Source of the DNA: a virus
Taxonomy: Duplodnaviria; Heunggongvirae; Uroviricota; Caudoviricetes
IMG/VR virus record: IMGVR_UViG_2534681766_000002
Strand: one strand, 5' to 3'
Length of the DNA stretch: 7,350 nt
Made by a program: the position numbers and the translations under genes. The first letter of the stretch is position 1, and each line of letters opens with the position of its first letter. A model generated the notes under the pieces. That model saw only the letters and a program-made list of their open reading frames with translations, was not told where the DNA came from and did no database searches. Below are positions 1-7,350 of the stretch, in pieces.

Positions 1-297
1 AAAGCTTTTATTGTATGTAAAAAAGCAGCTTAATATAGCCACTTAGTGGTAAAGATCTACCTTAAGACTTTGATATGTTCAAGAGGCATATAACGTAAGT
101 GTTCGTTGAGCCAAATGTGTTTACGCTATGACGAGTTGGTCGTTTTTTGACAATCCTGTAGGAGCTATAGATAGGCGTATATTAAGTGCGTGTTTTTGCA
201 TGTGTCAGATACTATTCTTTTTGTCAGTTTCGGTCAGTGCTGATGTGATTTCAGTTTCATCATGCAACTGCATTAAAACCGCCCCATGAAGCGGGCG

Positions 298-316
298 GGC
301 GAGGCGGGGAAAGCAC
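298..316. other. cos: cos site: 19-nt cohesive-end sequence GGCGAGGCGGGGAAAGCAC of P2/P4-type phages (terminase cleavage site)
   Basis: Exact string ggcgaggcggggaaagcac at 298..316, which I recall as the P2 5' cohesive end. It lies ~170 bp from the stop of portal gene Q, the expected left-end position. Flanked by a G/T-rich stretch (317..458) typical of a packaging region. Confidence 0.75.
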
Positions 317-458
317 TGCGCGCTGGCGGTGGTGCTGATTTTATTTTTTCAGCGTCTGAGCGCGTCGTGATGGCGTTTAGATTGTGCGCCGGGGCGTTGG
401 TGTGTATGCGGGCTGTTTTGTGCGGTGGTGAGCGTGTGAGGGCGTGATGACGGGGTGT

Positions 459-480
459 AAAAAAGCCGCCCGCAGGCGGC
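459..480 (-). terminator. Rho-independent terminator downstream of Q (end of the P-Q late transcript)
   Basis: On the minus strand: stem GCCGCC (revcomp of 475..480), 4-nt loop, stem GGCGGC (revcomp of 465..470), followed by a T6 run (revcomp of a459..a464). Begins 6 nt after the Q stop codon (486..488). Confidence 0.6.
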
Positions 481-485
481 GATGT

Positions 486-1520
486 TCAGCCGTTGTCAGT
501 GTCCAGTGAGTAGTTTTTAAAGCGGATGACCTCCTGACCGAGCCAGCCGTTTATCTCGCGGATCCTGTCCTGTAACGGGATAAGCTCATTGCGGACAAAG
601 ACCTTTGCCACTTTCTCAATATCACCCAGCGACCCGACGTTCTCCGGCTTGCCGCCCATCAACTGAAAGGGGATGCGGTGCGCGTCCAGCAGGTCTGCGG
701 CGCTGGCTTTTTTGATATTAAAAAAATCGTCCTTCGTTGCCACTTCACTGAGCGGGATAATTTTAATACCGTCGGCTTTTCCCTGTGGGGCGTAGAGAAA
801 CAGGTTTTTAAAGTTGTTGCGGCCTTTCGACTTCACCATGTTTTCGCGAAGCATTTCGATATCGTTGCGATCCTGCACGGCATCGGTGACGTACATGATG
901 TATCCGGCATGTGCGCCGTTTTCGTAATACTTGCGGCGGAACAGCGTGGCCGATTCATTCAGCCAGGCAGAGTTAAGGGCGCTGAGATATTCCGGCAGGC
1001 CGTACAGCTCCTGATTGATATCCGGCTCCAGCAGGTGAAACACGGAGCCGGGCGCGAAAGGTGTCGGCTCGTTGAAGGATGGCACCCACCAGTAAACATC
1101 CTCCTCCACGCCACGGCGGGTATATTTTGCCGGTGAGGTTTCCAGTCTGATGACCTTACCGGTAGTGCTGTAGCGCTTTTCCAGAAACGCATTACCGAAC
1201 ACCAGAAAATCCAGCACAAAGCGGCTGAAATCCTGCTGGGAAAGCCACGGGTGCGGGATAAACGTTGAAGCCAGAATATTACGTTTGACGTAAATCGGTG
1301 AGCTGTGATGCACGGCAGCACGCAGACTTTTTGCCAGACCGGTAAAGCTGACCGGTGGCTCATACCATCTGCCGTTACTGATGCACTCGACGTAATCCAG
1401 AATATCACGGCGGTCGAGTACCGGCACCGGCTCACCAAAGGTGAATGCCTCCATTTTCGGGGCGCTGGCAGTCATTGTTTTCACCGCTGGCTGCGGTGTT
1501 TTCCCTTTTTTCTTACTCAT
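486..1520 (-). CDS. Q: Portal (capsid portal vertex) protein, P2 gpQ-type, 344 aa
   Basis: Full-length ORF from the six-frame track (MSKKKGKTPQ...). Length and sequence match my recollection of P2 gpQ. Position directly inside cos and upstream partner of the terminase gene. Start ATG (1518..1520) overlaps the P stop codon by 1 nt. Confidence 0.93.
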   Translation of the reverse strand: MSKKKGKTPQPAVKTMTASAPKMEAFTFGEPVPVLDRRDILDYVECISNGRWYEPPVSFTGLAKSLRAAVHHSSPIYVKRNILASTFIPHPWLSQQDFSRFVLDFLVFGNAFLEKRYSTTGKVIRLETSPAKYTRRGVEEDVYWWVPSFNEPTPFAPGSVFHLLEPDINQELYGLPEYLSALNSAWLNESATLFRRKYYENGAHAGYIMYVTDAVQDRNDIEMLRENMVKSKGRNNFKNLFLYAPQGKADGIKIIPLSEVATKDDFFNIKKASAADLLDAHRIPFQLMGGKPENVGSLGDIEKVAKVFVRNELIPLQDRIREINGWLGQEVIRFKNYSLDTDNG

Positions 1521-3292
1521 CAGTAAAACTCCAGAATGGTGGATGTCAGCGGAGTGCTGATACCGGCGGTGAGTGGCTCATTTAACAGGGCGTGCATGGT
1601 CGCCCAGGCGAGGTCGGCGTGGCTGGCTTCCTCGCTGCGGCTGGCCTCATAGGTGGCGCTGCGTCCGCTGCTGGTCATGGTCTTGCGGATAGCCATGAAC
1701 GAGCTGGTGATGTCGGTGGCGCTGACGTCATATTCCAGACAGCCACGGCGGATAACGTCTTTTGCCTTGAGCACCATTGCAGTTTTCATTTCCGGCGTGT
1801 AGCGGATATCGCGCGCGGCGGGATAGAACGAGCGCACGAGCTGGAACACGCCGACACCGAGGCCGGTGGCATCAATACCGATGTATTCGACGTTATATTT
1901 TTCGGTGAGTTTGCGGATGGATTCAGCCTGGGTGGCAAAGTCCATGCCTTTCCACTGGTGACGCTCAAGTATTCTGAATTTGCCACCGGCCACCACCGGC
2001 GGTGCCAGCACCACGCATCCGGCGCTGTCGCCACGGTGTGACGGGTCGTAACCAATCCATACCGGACGTGAGCCGAACGGATTGGCGGCAAACGGAGCAT
2101 AGTCTTCCCATTCTTCCAGCGTGTCGACCATGCAGCGTTGCAGCTCCTCGAACGGGAACACCGACGCCTTGTCGTCAACAAATTCACACATGAACAGGTT
2201 TTTAAAATCGTCGGCGCTGTTTTCACGTTTGAGCTGCTCAATGTCGAACAGCGTGCAGCCGCCTTTCAGGGCGTCCTCAATGGTGACAATCTGCCGCCAC
2301 TGGCCGTCCGCACAGAGAAGCCCACCGGCAAGGGCGTTATGACTGACGTCGATTTCCACGCGTTCGGCGGCGCTGGCGCGTCCCCGGTTAAACAGTTCAC
2401 CCGACCAGAACGGGTAGGCGTCGTGCGCCAGTGTGGACGGGGTGGAGAAATAGGTCGAGCGCAGGTGACTCTGTGAGGCCATACCTGATGCCACCTTACG
2501 CAGTACCTGAAAATTCGGGATCCAGAAAATCTCGTCGACGTACAGGTCGCCGTTATGGCTCTGCGCGGGGTTGGAGTTGGTGCCGAGAAAAATCAGTTTT
2601 GCGCCGTTATTGCCCAGGACAATTGGGTCACCGGTCAGGTCAACGTCAACCAGCCGGGCAAAGGCGATGATGTATTCGCGGAACACATACGCCTGCGTTT
2701 TACTGGCCGACAGAAAAATCTGGTTATGACCGGTTTTCAGGGCGCGCAGCAGCGCCTCGCGGGAAAAATAAAACGTCGCGCCAATCTGGCGGGATTTCAG
2801 GATATCGCGGATGCGGTGCTCAAGCCCTGCGCGATACCAGTGCAACTGATATTCGAAAGACTGCTCAAAGAAAATCTGCTCCAGCTTTTCGATGGCCTCG
2901 TCACTGAAAAAATTCTTTTTCGGTTTGCGACGCCCGCCTTTGTTGCGGTTAGCGACGTTCGGATTAAGGTCTGCCTCGTTGCCGGTCTGACTGTAACGGT
3001 TGACCCGTGCCAGTCGTTCAATCTGGCGTCCGAGCAGGTCAATTTCCTTGAAGTCACCGCCGGTTTTCTGCGGTTTGATGATGAGCTGGGTCAGCCGCGC
3101 TTCCAGACTCATTTCGACACGGCTGATGGGGGCAACGCTGTCCCAGCCGTCGCGCTGTTTCCAGCTCTGCACCGTCGGGCGTTTCATCTGCAACATGGCG
3201 GCAATCCGCGGCACGGAAAATCCCTGCCAGTACAGCAGCGCCGCCTGACGACGCGGGTCGTGTAAAAGAGTGGTGTCTGTGGTGATGGTCAT
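1520..3292 (-). CDS. P: Terminase large (ATPase) subunit, P2 gpP-type, 590 aa
   Basis: The track ORF is 1520..3322 (600 aa). I place the start at the internal ATG 3290..3292 (MTITTDTTLL...) because it has a GAGG Shine-Dalgarno about 6 nt upstream on the minus strand, and it gives 590 aa, the length I recall for P2 gpP. The upstream ATG at 3322 has no comparable RBS. Confidence 0.88.
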   Translation of the reverse strand: MTITTDTTLLHDPRRQAALLYWQGFSVPRIAAMLQMKRPTVQSWKQRDGWDSVAPISRVEMSLEARLTQLIIKPQKTGGDFKEIDLLGRQIERLARVNRYSQTGNEADLNPNVANRNKGGRRKPKKNFFSDEAIEKLEQIFFEQSFEYQLHWYRAGLEHRIRDILKSRQIGATFYFSREALLRALKTGHNQIFLSASKTQAYVFREYIIAFARLVDVDLTGDPIVLGNNGAKLIFLGTNSNPAQSHNGDLYVDEIFWIPNFQVLRKVASGMASQSHLRSTYFSTPSTLAHDAYPFWSGELFNRGRASAAERVEIDVSHNALAGGLLCADGQWRQIVTIEDALKGGCTLFDIEQLKRENSADDFKNLFMCEFVDDKASVFPFEELQRCMVDTLEEWEDYAPFAANPFGSRPVWIGYDPSHRGDSAGCVVLAPPVVAGGKFRILERHQWKGMDFATQAESIRKLTEKYNVEYIGIDATGLGVGVFQLVRSFYPAARDIRYTPEMKTAMVLKAKDVIRRGCLEYDVSATDITSSFMAIRKTMTSSGRSATYEASRSEEASHADLAWATMHALLNEPLTAGISTPLTSTILEFY

Positions 3293-3465
3293 GAATACCT
3301 CGCCGTGATGAATACACGGCAAGGCTACTGAGTCGCGCCCCGCGATTCGCTAAGGTGCTGTTGTGTCAGTGATAAGCCATCCGGGACTGATGGCGGAGGA
3401 TGCGCATCGTCGGGAAACTGATGCCGACATGTGACTCCTCTAATCACTATTCAGGACTCCTGACA
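3293..3465. promoter_or_regulatory. Divergent late-promoter region between P (leftward) and O (rightward); expected site of Ogr/Delta-activated promoters
   Basis: 173-bp noncoding gap between divergently transcribed operons. P2-type late promoters are activator-dependent with a TGT-N12-ACA-like dyad near -55. The only near match I found is TGT(3430..3432)-N12-CAC(3445..3447). Exact promoter elements are not resolved from sequence alone. Confidence 0.45.
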
Positions 3466-3543
3466 ATGGCAAAAAAAGTCTCAAAATTCTTTCGTATCGG
3501 CGTTGAGGGTGACACCTGTGACGGGCGTGTCATCAGTGCGTAG
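3466..3543 (+). other. O: N-terminal 25 codons of scaffold/protease gene O, ended by an in-frame amber TAG at codon 26 (3541..3543)
   Basis: ATG at 3466 with AGGA 9 nt upstream. Reads MAKKVSKFFRIGVEGDTCDGRVISA then TAG, in the same frame as the downstream 254-aa ORF. 3466..4320 without the stop would be 284 codons, the length I recall for P2 gpO. Asp at codon 19, His at 48 and Ser at 107 in this numbering match the gpO protease catalytic triad as I recall it. Confidence 0.65.
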
Positions 3544-3555
3544 GATATTCAGGAA

Positions 3556-4320
3556 ATGGCCGAAACCTTTGACCCGCGAGTCTATGGTTGCCGCATTAAC
3601 CTGGAACATCTGCGCGGCATCCTGCCTGACGGTATTTTTAAGCGTTATGGCGATGTGGCCGAACTGAAGGCCGAAAAGATTGACGATGATTCGGCGCTGA
3701 AAGGCAAATGGGCGCTGTTTGCGAAAATCACCCCGACCGATGACCTTATCGCGATGAACAAGGCCGCGCAGAAGGTCTATACCTCAATGGAAATTCAGCC
3801 GAACTTTGCCAATACCGGCAAATGTTATCTGGTGGGTCTGGCCGTCACCGATGACCCGGCAAGCCTCGGCACGGAATACCTGGAATTCTGCCGCACGGCA
3901 AAACACAACCCCCTGAACCGCTTCAAATTAAACCCTGAAAACCTGATTTCAGTGGCAACGCCCGTTGAGCTGGAATTTGAAGACCTGCCTGAAACCGTGT
4001 TCACCGCCCTGACCGAAAAGGTGAAGTCCATTTTTGGCCGCAAACAGGCCAGCGATGACGCCCGTCTGAATGACGTGCATGAAGCGGTGACCGCTGTTGC
4101 TGAACATGTGCAGGAAAAACTGAGCGCCACTGAGCAGCGCCTCGCTGAGATGGAAACCGCTTTTTCCGCACTTAAGCAGGAGGTGACTGACAGGGCGGAT
4201 GAAACCAGCCAGGCATTCACCCGCCTGAAAAACAGTCTCGACCACACCGAAAGTCTGACCCAGCAGCGCCGCAGCAAGGCCACCGGTGGTGGCGGTGACG
4301 CCCTGATGACGAACTGCTGA
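3556..4320 (+). CDS. O: Capsid scaffolding protein/prohead protease gpO, as an N-terminally truncated ORF (254 aa) downstream of the amber codon
   Basis: Track ORF 3556..4320 (MAETFDPRVYGCRINLEHLRG...). Contains His and Ser of the presumed triad but not Asp19. Coiled-coil-like C-terminal half (EQRLAEMETAFSALKQEV...) typical of scaffold proteins. The internal ATG has only a close-spaced AGGAA (3 nt spacing), so independent initiation is doubtful. Confidence 0.8.
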   Translation: MAETFDPRVYGCRINLEHLRGILPDGIFKRYGDVAELKAEKIDDDSALKGKWALFAKITPTDDLIAMNKAAQKVYTSMEIQPNFANTGKCYLVGLAVTDDPASLGTEYLEFCRTAKHNPLNRFKLNPENLISVATPVELEFEDLPETVFTALTEKVKSIFGRKQASDDARLNDVHEAVTAVAEHVQEKLSATEQRLAEMETAFSALKQEVTDRADETSQAFTRLKNSLDHTESLTQQRRSKATGGGGDALMTNC

Positions 4321-4378
4321 CCGGCGTCAGTCAGTCCGGGAAAACCTTCACGATTAACCCTTAATTTCAGGAAAAACT

Positions 4379-5452
4379 ATGCGCCAGGAAACCCGCTTTA
4401 AATTTAATGCCTACCTGTCCCGTGTTGCCGAACTGAACGGCATCGACGCCGGTGATGTGTCGAAAAAATTCACCGTTGAACCGTCGGTCACCCAGACCCT
4501 GATGAACACCATGCAGGAGTCCTCTGACTTTCTGACCCGCATCAACATTGTGCCGGTCAGCGAAATGAAAGGGGAAAAAATTGGCATCGGTGTCACCGGC
4601 TCCATCGCCAGCACCACCGACACCGCCGGTGGCACCGAGCGTCAGCCGAAGGACTTCTCGAAGCTGGCGTCAAACAAGTACGAATGCGACCAGATTAACT
4701 TCGATTTTTATATCCGCTACAAAACGCTGGACCTGTGGGCGCGTTATCAGGATTTCCAGCTCCGTGTCCGTAACGCCATTATCAAACGCCAGTCCCTTGA
4801 TTTCATCATGGCCGGTTTTAACGGCGTGAGGCGTGCCGAAACCTCTGACCGCAGCAGCAATCCGATGCTGCAGGATGTGGCGGTCGGCTGGCTGCAGAAA
4901 TACCGCAATGAAGCCCCGGCGCGCGTGATGAGCAAGGTCACTGACGAGGAAGGGCACACCACCTCTGAGGTTATCCGCGTGGGTAAGGGCGGTGATTATG
5001 CCAGCCTTGACGCACTGGTGATGGATGCGACCAACAACCTGATTGAGCCGTGGTATCAGGAAGACCCTGACCTTGTGGTGATTGTGGGACGTCAGCTACT
5101 GGCGGACAAGTATTTTCCCATCGTCAACAAGGAGCAGGACAACAGCGAAATGCTGGCCGCTGACGTCATCATCAGCCAGAAACGCATCGGTAACCTGCCG
5201 GCGGTACGCGTCCCGTACTTCCCGGCGGATGCGATGCTCATCACAAAGCTGGAAAACCTGTCCATCTACTACATGGATGACAGCCATCGCCGCGTGATTG
5301 AGGAAAACCCGAAACTCGACCGCGTGGAGAACTACGAATCAATGAACATTGATTACGTGGTGGAAGACTACGCCGCCGGTTGTCTGGTGGAAAAAATTAA
5401 GGTCGGTGATTTCTCCACACTGGCTAAAGCGACCGCAGAGCCGGGAGCGTAA
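4379..5452 (+). CDS. N: Major capsid protein, P2 gpN-type, 357 aa
   Basis: Full-length ORF (MRQETRFKFNAYLSRVAELNG...). Length and sequence match my recollection of P2 gpN. AGGA 9 nt upstream of the ATG. Sits between scaffold and small terminase genes as in P2. Confidence 0.93.
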   Translation: MRQETRFKFNAYLSRVAELNGIDAGDVSKKFTVEPSVTQTLMNTMQESSDFLTRINIVPVSEMKGEKIGIGVTGSIASTTDTAGGTERQPKDFSKLASNKYECDQINFDFYIRYKTLDLWARYQDFQLRVRNAIIKRQSLDFIMAGFNGVRRAETSDRSSNPMLQDVAVGWLQKYRNEAPARVMSKVTDEEGHTTSEVIRVGKGGDYASLDALVMDATNNLIEPWYQEDPDLVVIVGRQLLADKYFPIVNKEQDNSEMLAADVIISQKRIGNLPAVRVPYFPADAMLITKLENLSIYYMDDSHRRVIEENPKLDRVENYESMNIDYVVEDYAAGCLVEKIKVGDFSTLAKATAEPGA

Positions 5453-5455
5453 CCG

Positions 5456-6199
5456 ATGACGAGTCCCGCACAGCGCCACATGATGCGGGTCTCGGCAGCG
5501 ATGACCGCGCAGCGGGAAGCCGCCCCGCTGCGACATGCAACTGTCTATGAGCAGATGCTGGTTAAGCTCGCCGCAGACCAGCGCACACTGAAAGCGATTT
5601 ATTCAAAAGAGCTGAAGGCCGCAAAAAAACGCGAACTGCTGCCGTTCTGGTTGCCGTGGGTGAACGGCGTGCTGGAGCAGGGCAAAGGTGCACAGGATGA
5701 CATTCTGATGACGGTCATGCTGTGGCGTCTGGATACCGGCGATATTGCCGGTGCGCTGGAGATTGCCCGTTATGCCCTGAAGTACGGTCTGACCATGCCG
5801 GGTAAACACCGCCGCACCCCGCCGTACATGTTCACCGAGGAGGTGGCGCTCGCGGCCATGCGCGCCCACGCTGCCGGTGAGTCTGTGGATACCCGCCTGC
5901 TGACGGAGACCCTTGCACTGACCGCCACGGCAGACATGCCTGATGAAGTGCGCGCAAAGCTGCACAAAATCACCGGTCTGTTTCTGCGTGACGCTGGTGA
6001 TGCCGCCGGTGCGCTGGCTCACCTGCAACGTGCGACACAGCTCGACTGTCAGGCAGGCGTCAAAAAAGAGATTGAACGACTGGAGCGGGAGCTGAAACCG
6101 AAGCCGGAGCCGCAGCCCAAAGCGGCCACCCGCGCCCCGCGTAAGACCCGGAGCGTGACACCGGCAAAACGTGGACGCCCGAAAAAGAAAGCCAGTTAA
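5456..6199 (+). CDS. M: Terminase small (endonuclease/DNA-recognition) subunit, P2 gpM-type, 247 aa
   Basis: Full-length ORF starting 4 nt after the N stop, with GGGAG RBS at 5441..5445. Basic Lys/Arg/Pro-rich C-terminal tail. Length matches recalled P2 gpM. Confidence 0.88.
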   Translation: MTSPAQRHMMRVSAAMTAQREAAPLRHATVYEQMLVKLAADQRTLKAIYSKELKAAKKRELLPFWLPWVNGVLEQGKGAQDDILMTVMLWRLDTGDIAGALEIARYALKYGLTMPGKHRRTPPYMFTEEVALAAMRAHAAGESVDTRLLTETLALTATADMPDEVRAKLHKITGLFLRDAGDAAGALAHLQRATQLDCQAGVKKEIERLERELKPKPEPQPKAATRAPRKTRSVTPAKRGRPKKKAS

Positions 6200-6298
6200 C
6201 AACCGAATGCGCCCCGCGCCAGGGCGGCACGCCGGTCAGTGAGGGTGAATCACCTGACACTGCACCGGCGTCCACCGCCCGACTTTTCAGAGGTAGTC

Positions 6299-6808
6299 AT
6301 GATGACGCTGATTATTCCGCGAAAGGAGGCTCCCGTGTCCGGTGAGGGTACGGTGGTCATCCCGCAACCGGCAGGCGACGAGCCGGTGATTAAAAACACG
6401 TTCTTTTTTCCCGATATCGACCCGAAGCGCGTCCGGGAACGTATGCGCCTTGAGCAGACTGTCGCCCCCGCCCGTCTGCGTGAGGCCATCAAGTCAGGCA
6501 TGGCGGAGACGAATGCGGAGCTGTACGAGTACCGCGAACAGAAAATTGCTGCCGGTTTTTCGCGTCTGGCTGACGTCCCGGCGGACGACATCGACGGTGA
6601 AAGCATCAAAGTTTTTTACTACGAGCGCGCCGTGTGTGCGATGGCGACCGCGTCGCTTTATGAGCGTTATCGCGGCGTGGATGCCAGTGCGAAAGGCGAC
6701 AAGAAGGCCGACAGCATTGACAGCACCATTGATGAACTGTGGCGGGATATGCGCTGGGCAGTGGCGCGCATCCAGGACAAGCCGCGCTGCATCGTGAGTC
6801 AAATCTGA
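6299..6808 (+). CDS. L: Head completion/stabilisation protein, P2 gpL-type, 169 aa
   Basis: Track ORF begins at 6239, but I place the start at ATG 6299 (MMTLIIPRKEAP...), which has AGAGG 5 nt upstream and gives 169 aa as recalled for gpL. Stop TGA 6806..6808 overlaps the X start. Confidence 0.88.
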   Translation: MMTLIIPRKEAPVSGEGTVVIPQPAGDEPVIKNTFFFPDIDPKRVRERMRLEQTVAPARLREAIKSGMAETNAELYEYREQKIAAGFSRLADVPADDIDGESIKVFYYERAVCAMATASLYERYRGVDASAKGDKKADSIDSTIDELWRDMRWAVARIQDKPRCIVSQI

Positions 6809-7011
6809 TGAAGACCTTTGCGCTACAGGGCGACACGCTCGACGCCATTTGTGTCCGGTATTACGGGCGCACTGAGGGCGTGGTTGAGACCGTGCTCGCC
6901 GCAAATCCGGGACTGGCTGAACTGGGTGCGGTGCTGCCACACGGCACCGCCGTCGAACTGCCCGACGTTCAGACCGCGCCCGTGGCTGAAACTGTCAATC
7001 TGTGGGAGTAA
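6808..7011 (+). CDS. X: Tail protein X (LysM-like domain), P2 gpX-type, 67 aa
   Basis: ATG 6808..6810 overlaps the L stop (TGATG). Product MKTFALQGDTLDAICVRYYGRTEGVV... has a LysM-like motif. The track shows it as the second half of a 90-aa ORF from 6739; the upstream part overlaps L and is rejected. Confidence 0.82.
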   Translation: MKTFALQGDTLDAICVRYYGRTEGVVETVLAANPGLAELGAVLPHGTAVELPDVQTAPVAETVNLWE

Positions 7012-7014
7012 CGC

Positions 7015-7239
7015 ATGACAGCAGAAGAAAAAAGCGTCCTGTCGCTTTTCATGATTGGGGTGCTGATTGTTGTCGGCAAGGTGCTTGCCGGTGGTGAACC
7101 CATCACCCCGCGTCTGTTTATCGGGCGCATGTTGCTCGGTGGTTTTGTCTCGATGGTTGACCGGCCAGCACAACGACACCGGCCAGCCACTTTCGTTAAC
7201 CATCCCTGTGAGTTGAAACCATGCCGATTATCGACCTGA
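7015..7239 (+). CDS. Y: Holin Y-like ORF (74 aa as read); hydrophobic N-terminal 48 aa, atypical Arg/Pro/Cys-rich C-terminus, possibly disrupted
   Basis: ATG 7015 with GGGAG at 7004..7008. Residues 8-26 and 34-48 are hydrophobic and transmembrane-like. After codon 48 (from 7159) the frame encodes DRPAQRHRPATFVNHPCELKPCRLST. I recall P2 Y as 93 aa, which does not fit the stop at 7237..7239. Confidence 0.55.
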   Translation: MTAEEKSVLSLFMIGVLIVVGKVLAGGEPITPRLFIGRMLLGGFVSMVDRPAQRHRPATFVNHPCELKPCRLST

Positions 7240-7243
7240 ACCA

Positions 7244-7350
7244 GCTATCGGGGCGATTAGCTGGCCGGTAGTGGCCGTGGTGGCCGCCATTGTCGCCGGG
7301 GCGTTACTTATCCGTAAATACTGGGAGCCTGTCAGCGCATTTTTTGGCGG
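7244..7350 (+). other. Hydrophobic reading frame with no start codon, running off the window end; likely displaced 3' part of holin gene Y (partial)
   Basis: The frame shifted +1 relative to Y encodes AIGAISWPVVAVVAAIVAGALLIRKYWEPVSAFFG with no stop to the window end and no ATG/GTG with an RBS. Joining it to Y codon 48 gives a continuous hydrophobic span followed by a charged stretch, as expected of a holin. Confidence 0.4.

What the first reader, a model, noticed from the sequence alone, without database searches (positions are those of the whole stretch)
3466..3560. In-frame amber (TAG) at codon 26 of scaffold/protease gene O, between catalytic Asp19 and His48
Reading from ATG 3466, codon 26 (3541..3543) is TAG; the frame reopens with Met at codon 31 (3556). 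The full frame is exactly 284 codons, and Asp19 (3520..3522), His48 (3607..3609) and Ser107 (3784..3786) sit where I recall the gpO serine-protease triad. The upstream segment is therefore real coding sequence cut by a nonsense codon, most simply a single C-to-T change from CAG. Any product restarting at Met31 would lack Asp19. gpO is essential for P2 head assembly, so this phage should be unable to form capsids unless the host carries an amber suppressor. That fits a classical lab amber mutant, a decaying prophage, or a sequencing error.
Basis: partly seen in the sequence, partly recalled or inferred. Interest (0 to 1): 0.65.

Follow-up and report, generated by a model that had tools for sequence, protein, structure and literature searches.

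The report
Amber-killed scaffold gene, decaying P2-like prophage
The stop codon is real: one C-to-T change has broken the head scaffold/protease gene of a P2-like prophage in a natural E. coli isolate, and because the same prophage copy also appears to have lost its lysis and tail genes, this is ordinary prophage decay and not a special mechanism.

Summary
From ATG 3466 the frame has 284 codons, and codon 26 (3541-3543) is TAG. P2 and all 29 other comparator prophages that retain O have CAG there. The TAG 33-mer occurs in 0 of 5,426 complete E. coli genomes, while the CAG version occurs at 1,713 places. Asp19, His48 and Ser107 are invariant across 12 gpO homologues, so the upstream 25 codons are real coding sequence.

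The window is a whole draft contig of E. coli 2730350 (APXD01000037.1). An independent Logan assembly of SRR446753 also carries the TAG, so an assembly error is unlikely. The sequence is only 97.8% identical to P2, so it is not a laboratory P2 amber mutant.

The contig's right end shows two illegitimate joins: Y' to the end of W, then the start of J to inside T. In this copy they remove the lysis genes and most tail genes.

Best reading: a spontaneous nonsense mutation in a defective, decaying prophage. A restart at Met31 is possible but unproven. Its product would lack Asp19 and would be at best a protease-dead scaffold. Interest is low.

The parts
298..316 (.). cos site (19-nt cohesive-end sequence; P2 right-end homology at 269-316 joined to left-end homology at 298-330)
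   Evidence: blastn against P2: window 269-316 matches P2 33546-33593 and window 298-330 matches P2 1-33
486..1520 (-). Q, portal protein, intact (344 aa)
   Evidence: ORF list; PF04860; collinear with P2 Q
1520..3292 (-). P, large terminase, full length (590 aa); site 2569 is G here (Thr242Pro) but T in the Logan contig and in 12 of 12 references
3293..3465 (.). divergent P/O late-promoter control region, 100% identical to P2 2994-3166 (holds the activator-binding site and both transcription starts annotated in P2)
   Evidence: 0 mismatches in 173 nt; P2 annotation
3466..4320 (+). O, head scaffold / maturation protease gene; 284 codons, interrupted by an amber at codon 26 (pseudogene)
3541..3543 (+). 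the amber codon TAG (Gln26 CAG in P2 and all other comparators; C-to-T at 3541)
3556..4320 (+). residual ORF from Met31 (254 aa; GenBank ENA86549.1); keeps His48, Ser107 and the C-terminal scaffold domain but lacks Asp19
4379..5452 (+). N, major capsid protein, intact (357 aa)
5456..6199 (+). M, small terminase, intact (247 aa)
6299..6808 (+). L, head completion protein, intact (169 aa)
6808..7011 (+). X, tail protein X, intact (67 aa)
7015..7159 (+). Y', the 5' half of the holin gene, cut by deletion junction 1 (the called 74-aa ORF 7015-7239 is a Y'-fusion unique to this assembly)
7157..7160 (.). junction 1: Y (P2 about 6860) joined to the end of W (P2 about 11230); the only shared bases are TTG. 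In this copy it removes the 3' part of Y, then K, lysA, lysB, lysC, R, S, the orf30 region, V and most of W
   Evidence: all 12 references break here; the Logan contig reads 22 nt past it
7160..7247 (+). 88-nt island: the end of W and the first codons of J
   Evidence: matches P2 11227-11318
7247..7248 (.). junction 2: start of J (P2 11318) joined to the inside of tape-measure gene T (P2 about 21620); 1-nt overlap. It would remove J, I, H, G, the fun(Z) region, FI, FII, E and the 5' part of T. Supported only by the NCBI contig
7248..7350 (+). T', an internal fragment of the tape-measure gene, running to the end of the contig
   Evidence: 92.5% identical to P2 21617-21723; annotated as tape measure in E. 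coli genomes

Best explanation
A spontaneous C-to-T transition turned Gln26 (CAG) of the gpO scaffold/protease gene into an amber stop in a P2-like prophage of the natural isolate E. coli 2730350. This prophage copy is already defective. On the same contig, holin gene Y is joined by illegitimate recombination to the end of W, and the start of J is joined to the middle of T, so the endolysin, tail-completion, baseplate, fibre, sheath and tube genes are missing from this copy. The amber is therefore one lesion among several in a decaying, cryptic prophage, and nothing suggests it is used for anything.

Shown: the late promoter region is intact. Inferred: if the late operon were switched on, ribosomes would stop after 25 residues; some might restart at Met31, 12 nt downstream; that product would keep His48, Ser107 and the C-terminal scaffold domain but lack the invariant Asp19. 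It could at best build procapsids that cannot mature.
For: - The TAG is real and derived. P2 has CAG, as do 12 of 12 aligned references and all 29 of 30 further prophages that retain O.
- The TAG 33-mer has 0 hits in 5,426 complete E. coli genomes, against 1,713 places for the CAG 33-mer. It also has 0 hits in genome, viral and metagenome contig collections.
- An independent Logan assembly of SRR446753 reproduces the TAG and junction 1.
- The upstream codons are genuine coding sequence. Annotated homologues start at the upstream ATG, Pfam PF05929 starts at residue 6, and Asp19, His48 and Ser107 are invariant in 12 homologues down to about 32% identity.
- The source is a draft WGS assembly named E. 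coli 2730350, 97.8% identical to P2.
- The deletion joins are mapped against P2 and 11 other prophages.
- The decay is recent. Q, P, N, M, L and X are full length, and 17 of 23 substitutions absent from the 12 references are synonymous.
- O lesions are not rare in such prophages. Of 30 comparators, 3 have 1-nt frameshifts in O and 1 has lost O. Other public contigs have slips in the A7 run at codons 3-5, or an independent amber at codon 29.
- PMC7552001 gives residues 1-141 as the protease domain, 195-284 as the scaffold domain, and S107A as protease-dead yet still assembling procapsids.
Against: - I could not see reads, so the C/T ratio at 3541 is unknown.
- It is not shown that SRR446753 is the run behind the NCBI assembly. 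The two contigs differ at site 2569, so the NCBI contig either contains an error or comes from a slightly different isolate.
- Junction 2 rests on the NCBI contig alone and lies 103 nt from its end.
- The Logan contig stops at 7186, the last 31-mer specific to junction 1. This suggests the W/J sequence also exists in another context in that genome, so the missing genes could lie elsewhere (a second P2-like element or a rearrangement) instead of being lost.
- Whether the host carries a suppressor tRNA cannot be checked from one contig.
Confidence: 0.86

Rival explanations
1. Sequencing or assembly error: the true base at 3541 is C and gene O is intact.
For: The allele is a singleton, found in no other genome. 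The NCBI contig has at least one base (2569) that disagrees with the Logan assembly and with 12 of 12 references, so the contig is not flawless. Its right end looks odd.
Against: Two assemblies made with different software, the NCBI contig and the Logan contig of SRR446753, both have T at 3541 and agree at 5,461 of 5,462 positions. A substitution error does not normally win a short-read consensus (established knowledge of the method, not tested here).
Confidence: 0.05
2. A conditional-lethal laboratory amber mutant of P2, or a phage kept viable by an amber-suppressor host.
For: CAG to TAG is the classic mutagen-induced amber change (general knowledge). O is an essential gene in which amber mutants were historically isolated (general knowledge). 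The rest of the head module and the late promoter are intact.
Against: The DNA is not P2: 143 mismatches and 7 gaps over 6,870 nt. Its nearest relatives are natural prophages at about 98.4%. The source is a draft WGS assembly named E. coli 2730350. The same copy lacks lysis and tail genes, so suppression could not rescue it. The contig holds no tRNA gene.
Confidence: 0.01
3. The truncated product from Met31 is made and has a use, for example a protease-free scaffold or a dominant-negative protein that interferes with incoming P2-like phages or with P4-like satellites. On this view early ambers just upstream of Met31 are tolerated or even selected.
For: An AGGA lies 10 nt upstream of ATG 3556, and the stop is only 12 nt from that ATG, so termination-reinitiation is conceivable. 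The late promoter is 100% conserved. The C-terminal scaffold domain is untouched, and protease-dead gpO still assembles procapsids (PMC7552001). An independent amber at codon 29 exists in a Klebsiella-like relative whose late genes are otherwise complete.
Against: The Shine-Dalgarno match is no better than for about 30% of all ATGs on the + strand of the window. The allele is a singleton. The codon-29 lineage is a single clone, 100% identical over up to 16.5 kb, so it says nothing about tolerance. It was also found by looking specifically for products that start at Met31, which forces any lesion into codons 1-30. No deposited phage carries either amber. Nothing was measured.
Confidence: 0.04

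Closest known systems
Bacteriophage P2 gene O (gpO; Pfam PF05929 Phage_GPO; from memory MEROPS family S73)
   Same: Same position in the late operon, between divergent P and downstream N. Same length of 284 codons. 98.8% nucleotide identity across the O region, and 11 base differences in the 855-nt gene, 9 of them synonymous. Same Asp19/His48/Ser107 and C-terminal Cys284.
   Different: Codon 26 is TAG instead of CAG, so the full-length protein cannot be made without suppression. There is also one missense difference, Ser156Asn.
Natural P2-like (Peduovirus) prophages of E. coli, such as the one in strain ESC818 or Yersinia phage GMS190
   Same: 98.4-98.7% identical and collinear from cos through Q, P, O, N, M, L, X into Y.
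   Different: In this copy Y is joined to the end of W and J to the inside of T. No complete E. coli genome shares that architecture. No other genome has the amber.
Other naturally disrupted O genes in P2-like prophages
   Same: A single small lesion early in O that makes gene callers start at Met31: A7-run slips in L047-L050 and a codon-29 amber in L051-L058. There are also 1-nt frameshifts in L021, L032 and L046.
   Different: A different lesion and a different lineage in each case. This one is a substitution at codon 26, seen only in this strain.
Classical P2 O amber mutants used in P2/P4 genetics
   Same: An amber codon in the same essential gene.
   Different: Those were made in the P2 laboratory background. 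This sequence differs from P2 at about 2% of sites and sits in a deleted prophage of a natural isolate. I could not retrieve the sequenced positions of the laboratory alleles.

Membership tests
GPO capsid scaffold / serine peptidase (PF05929) | Significant match to the family profile | tested here: met
   The repaired 284-aa protein scores 367.9 bits (cut-off 33.6) over residues 6-284. The 254-aa ORF scores 322.3 bits starting at model position 26.
GPO capsid scaffold / serine peptidase (PF05929) | Codons for the catalytic residues Asp19, His48 and Ser107 | tested here: met
   GAC 3520-3522, CAT 3607-3609 and TCA 3784-3786. All three columns are invariant in 12 homologues. S107A is reported protease-dead in PMC7552001. 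The roles of Asp19 and His48 are from my memory of Chang et al. 2009, which is not held.
GPO capsid scaffold / serine peptidase (PF05929) | One uninterrupted reading frame that joins all three catalytic residues to the scaffold domain | tested here: not met
   TAG at codon 26 separates Asp19 from His48 and Ser107. It is a gpO gene by descent, but a pseudogene.
GPO capsid scaffold / serine peptidase (PF05929) | First gene of the late operon, divergent from P-Q and followed by N, M, L | tested here: met
   Gene order and collinearity with P2.
Complete P2-like (Peduoviridae) prophage | Contiguous late genes: Q P / O N M L X Y K lysA lysB R S / V W J I H G / FI FII E T U D | tested here: not met
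   The contig runs Q through Y', then an 88-nt W'/J' island, then T'. Whether the missing genes lie on other contigs of the assembly could not be tested.
Laboratory P2 amber mutant | Sequence identical to P2 apart from the induced mutation | tested here: not met
   97.8% identity, 143 mismatches and 7 gaps in 6,870 nt.
Laboratory P2 amber mutant | Propagated on an amber-suppressor host | not testable with these tools
   Only this contig is available. It holds no tRNA gene.
Programmed stop-codon readthrough or recoding site | The stop codon is conserved among relatives | tested here: not met
   0 of 1,713 E. coli places, 0 of 29 comparators and 0 of 12 diverged homologues have a stop at this codon.

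The most novel reading that the evidence does not exclude
Early nonsense codons just upstream of Met31 of gpO (codon 26 here, codon 29 in an unrelated Klebsiella-like lineage) are tolerated or favoured because reinitiation at Met31 yields a protease-free scaffold. That product would be harmless to the host, or would act as a dominant-negative decoy that poisons head assembly of superinfecting P2-like phages or P4-like satellites.
Probability: 0.03. Interest if true: 0.5.

Novelty: already known. Interest (0 to 1): 0.1.

Why it matters
It matters little beyond correct annotation. This locus should be labelled as a gpO pseudogene in a defective P2-like prophage, not as a 254-aa 'serine peptidase family protein', and the prophage should not be counted as inducible. 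It adds one dated example to the common pattern of prophage decay, in which point lesions and illegitimate deletions accumulate while most genes still look intact. The only wider interest would come if products restarting at Met31 turned out to be made and active, for which there is no evidence here.

Tried and rejected
- **Exact-pattern scans.** The TAG 33-mer found nothing in genome contigs, viral contigs or metagenome contigs. The junction-1 pattern found nothing in genome contigs.
- **Junction architecture.** No complete E. coli genome contains it.
- **Accession searches.** Paper searches for APXD01, GCA_000356325 and SRR446753 returned only unrelated papers.
- **Primary literature.** Chang et al. 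2009 and 2008 are not held. Searches for the triad residues and for P2 Oam alleles returned noise.
- **Exact look-ups.** The 47-aa N-terminal ORF, the 74-aa Y' fusion ORF and gpP returned only this contig. gpQ, gpM and gpL are widespread and did not single out sister isolates.
- **P0002.** It could not be looked up until a homology search had returned it.
- **Dcm hotspot.** The mutated C sits in GCAGG, not in CCAGG, so 5-methylcytosine deamination at a Dcm site does not explain it (read directly from the sequence).
- **Suppressor tRNA.** There is no tRNA gene in the window.
- **Restart signal.** The Shine-Dalgarno energy for Met31 does not discriminate it from other ATGs.

Full report
**1. The observation**

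Read from ATG 3466, the + strand frame runs for 284 codons to TGA at 4318-4320, with a single internal stop, TAG, at 3541-3543 (codon 26).
- Asp19: GAC at 3520-3522
- Met31: ATG at 3556-3558
- His48: CAT at 3607-3609
- Ser107: TCA at 3784-3786
- Cys284: TGC at 4315-4317

Aligned to P2 gene O (NC_001895, 3167-4021), the window differs at 11 of 855 bases. Nine differences are synonymous, one is Ser156Asn, and one is C-to-T at 3541, which turns CAG (Gln26) into TAG. The mechanical ORF list shows the consequence: a 47-aa ORF ending at 3543 and a 254-aa ORF starting at 3556.

**2. The upstream 25 codons are real coding sequence**

- The repaired protein matches Pfam PF05929 (Phage_GPO) from residue 6 to 284 at 368 bits. 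The 254-aa ORF only enters the model at position 26.
- In P2, 186, and phages of Yersinia, Klebsiella, Burkholderia, Mannheimia, Microcystis, Vibrio and Pseudoalteromonas, the annotated gene starts at the upstream ATG.
- In an alignment of 12 such proteins, down to about 32% identity, Asp19 (inside an invariant DGR motif), His48 and Ser107 are invariant. Position 26 is variable (Q, S, N, A, D, E, V, K) but is never a stop.
- PMC7552001 states that residues 1-141 of gpO form the protease domain and residues 195-284 the scaffold domain. It also reports that O(S107A) is protease-deficient yet still gives procapsids with gpN.
- The roles of Asp19 and His48 in the triad are from my memory of Chang et al. 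2009 (Virology 384:144), which the library does not hold. The invariance is consistent with that.

**3. The TAG is derived and private to this strain**

- A 33-mer centred on the T has no match in 5,426 complete E. coli genomes. The same 33-mer with C matches 1,713 places in 1,497 genomes.
- The TAG 33-mer is also absent from the species-representative genomes, the viral contigs and the metagenome contigs.
- All 12 aligned references have C at this site. All 29 of 30 further P2-like prophages that retain O have CAG.

**4. Where the window comes from**

An exact look-up of the 254-aa product shows that the window is the whole of contig APXD01000037.1 (7,350 bp) of NCBI assembly GCA_000356325.2. 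The sources name the protein ENA86549.1, 'phage capsid scaffolding (GPO) serine peptidase family protein [Escherichia coli 2730350]'.

The same protein is encoded on contig 33 of the Logan assembly of run SRR446753. That contig equals window 1725-7186 with one mismatch and carries the TAG. Two assemblers therefore reach the same base. I could not confirm that this run belongs to the same isolate, and I could not see reads.

The one mismatch is at window 2569. The NCBI contig has G, giving Thr242Pro in gpP. The Logan contig and 12 of 12 references have T. The NCBI contig is therefore not error-free, or the two sources are sister isolates.

**5. It is not a laboratory P2 mutant**

The window is 97.8% identical to P2 over 6,870 nt, with 143 mismatches and 7 gaps. 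It is closer (98.4-98.7%) to natural prophages such as that of E. coli ESC818 and to Yersinia phage GMS190.

**6. The surroundings change the picture**

Window 298-7164 is collinear with P2 1-6864. It holds the cos site (298-316), Q, P, the P/O control region, O, N, M, L, X and the first half of holin gene Y. Then:
- Window 7156-7247 matches P2 11227-11318, the end of W and the start of J.
- Window 7244-7350 matches P2 21617-21723, inside tape-measure gene T.

At base level the joins are as follows:
- Junction 1: Y ...GATGGTTG | ACCGGCCAGC... W. The two sides share only TTG.
- Junction 2: J ...AACCAGCTA | TCGGGGCG... T. The two sides share one base.

All 12 references break at the same point. 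No complete E. coli genome has this architecture. The 74-aa Y' fusion ORF is unique to this assembly.

The Logan contig reads 22 nt beyond junction 1 without branching at 7159/7160. Reads therefore support the join, and there is no normal continuation of Y at comparable abundance (the inference rests on how de Bruijn assemblers break contigs). Junction 2 is supported by the NCBI contig alone.

If both joins are real, this prophage copy lacks the following genes:
- K (endolysin), lysA, lysB and lysC
- R, S and V, and most of W
- J, I, H, G, FI, FII and E
- the 5' part of T

It could then not lyse cells or build tails, whatever the state of O.

One caveat applies. The Logan contig ends at 7186, the last 31-mer that still contains a junction-specific base. 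This is what one expects if the W/J sequence also occurs in another context in that genome. The missing genes may therefore lie elsewhere, in a second P2-like element or a rearrangement. This could not be resolved.

**7. The decay is recent**

- Q (344 aa), P (590), N (357), M (247), L (169) and X (67) are all full length.
- The 173-nt P/O control region is identical to P2.
- Of 23 substitutions in the window that none of the 12 references share, 17 are synonymous, 5 are missense (one being the doubtful 2569) and 1 is the amber. Most of this lineage's divergence therefore accumulated under purifying selection. The amber and the deletions are late events whose order is unknown.

**8. Base rate of O lesions**

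Lesions in O are not rare in public P2-like prophages:
- Of 30 comparators, three have a 1-nt deletion in O (L021, L032, L046) and one has lost O altogether (L036). Some of these may be sequencing errors.
- Another 254-aa 'Met31-start' product, P0002, comes from +1 or -1 slips in the A7 run at codons 3-5, with codon 26 still CAG.
- A third, P0103, comes from an independent CAG-to-TAG amber at codon 29 in a Klebsiella-like relative whose late genes are otherwise complete.

The P0103 lineage appears on 11 contigs from ENA, JGI and Logan samples. The five fetched copies are 100% identical over up to 16.5 kb, so it is one clone sampled repeatedly and not evidence that the amber is tolerated. No deposited phage genome carries it; the best match is 93.7%. 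It was also found by looking for products that start at Met31, which forces any lesion into codons 1-30.

**9. Mechanism**

Shown: there is a stop at codon 26; the late promoter region is intact; Asp19 lies upstream of the stop, while His48, Ser107 and the scaffold domain lie downstream.

Inferred:
- On late-operon expression, translation ends after 25 residues.
- A fraction of ribosomes may restart at ATG 3556, 12 nt downstream of the stop. An AGGA lies 10 nt upstream and another 1 nt upstream.
- The computed anti-Shine-Dalgarno pairing (-4.3 kcal/mol) equals that of the native O and N starts. However, about 30% of all ATGs on the + strand of the window do as well, so it proves nothing.
- Such a product would lack the invariant Asp19. 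By analogy with O(S107A), it could at best build procapsids that are not cleaved.
- Because the untranslated gap would be so short, strong polarity on N, M and L is not expected.
- Natural readthrough of UAG is low in wild-type E. coli (general knowledge). The contig has no tRNA gene, and the rest of the host genome could not be examined.

**10. Comparison and verdict**

By descent this is a gpO gene of a P2-like (Peduovirus) prophage. By function it is a pseudogene. It fails the one membership feature that matters for activity, an uninterrupted frame. It also fails the test for programmed readthrough, because the stop is not conserved anywhere.

Of the three origins it proposed, 'decaying prophage' is the one the evidence supports. 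This is an ordinary case of prophage decay, and interest is low. The practical outcome is an annotation correction: O is a pseudogene and the prophage is defective.

Noticed in passing
window 7157-7160 and 7247-7248: There are two illegitimate-recombination joins (Y' to the end of W, and the start of J to inside T) that leave an 88-nt W'/J' island. In this copy they remove about 4.4 kb and about 10.3 kb relative to P2.
   Followed up: yes
window 2569: The NCBI contig has G (gpP Thr242Pro). The Logan assembly of SRR446753 and 12 of 12 reference prophages have T. This is either an error in the deposited contig or a difference between isolates.
   Followed up: partly
window 1725 and 7186 (ends of Logan contig L005): The Logan contig ends at 7186, the last 31-mer specific to junction 1. 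This suggests that the W/J sequence occurs in a second context in the same read set (a second P2-like element or a rearrangement). The reason for its start at 1725 was not examined.
   Followed up: no
L051-L058 (e.g. L054 5733-6587): An independent CAG-to-TAG amber sits at codon 29 of gpO, two codons before Met31, in a Klebsiella-like P2 relative whose late genes are otherwise complete. It is on 11 contigs from ENA, JGI and Logan samples. The five fetched copies are 100% identical, so this is one widely sampled clone.
   Followed up: partly
L046-L050 (O codons 3-5), L032 (O nt 27), L021 (O nt 444): These contigs have 1-nt insertions or deletions in O, several of them in the A7 run GCAAAAAAAGTC at the start of the gene. 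They may be real slippage mutations or homopolymer sequencing errors, and they make gene callers start O at Met31 or drop the gene.
   Followed up: partly
protein P0065: A 281-aa E. coli protein carries both PF04965 (GPW_gp25) and PF05929 (GPO) and is 99% identical to the window's O over 83% of its length. It appears to be a W-O fusion, which implies another rearranged P2-like prophage.
   Followed up: no
L036: This P2-like remnant keeps Q, the replication genes and int but has lost P, O, N, M and L. It is a more advanced stage of the same kind of decay.
   Followed up: no
window 1-268: This sequence is not from P2. It holds small ORFs at 128-289 and 286-447 (the latter runs on past 268). It lies at the variable cargo position next to cos, is shared with the prophage of E. 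coli ESC818 (where an AAA-family ATPase gene lies beyond it), and is absent from most other relatives.
   Followed up: no
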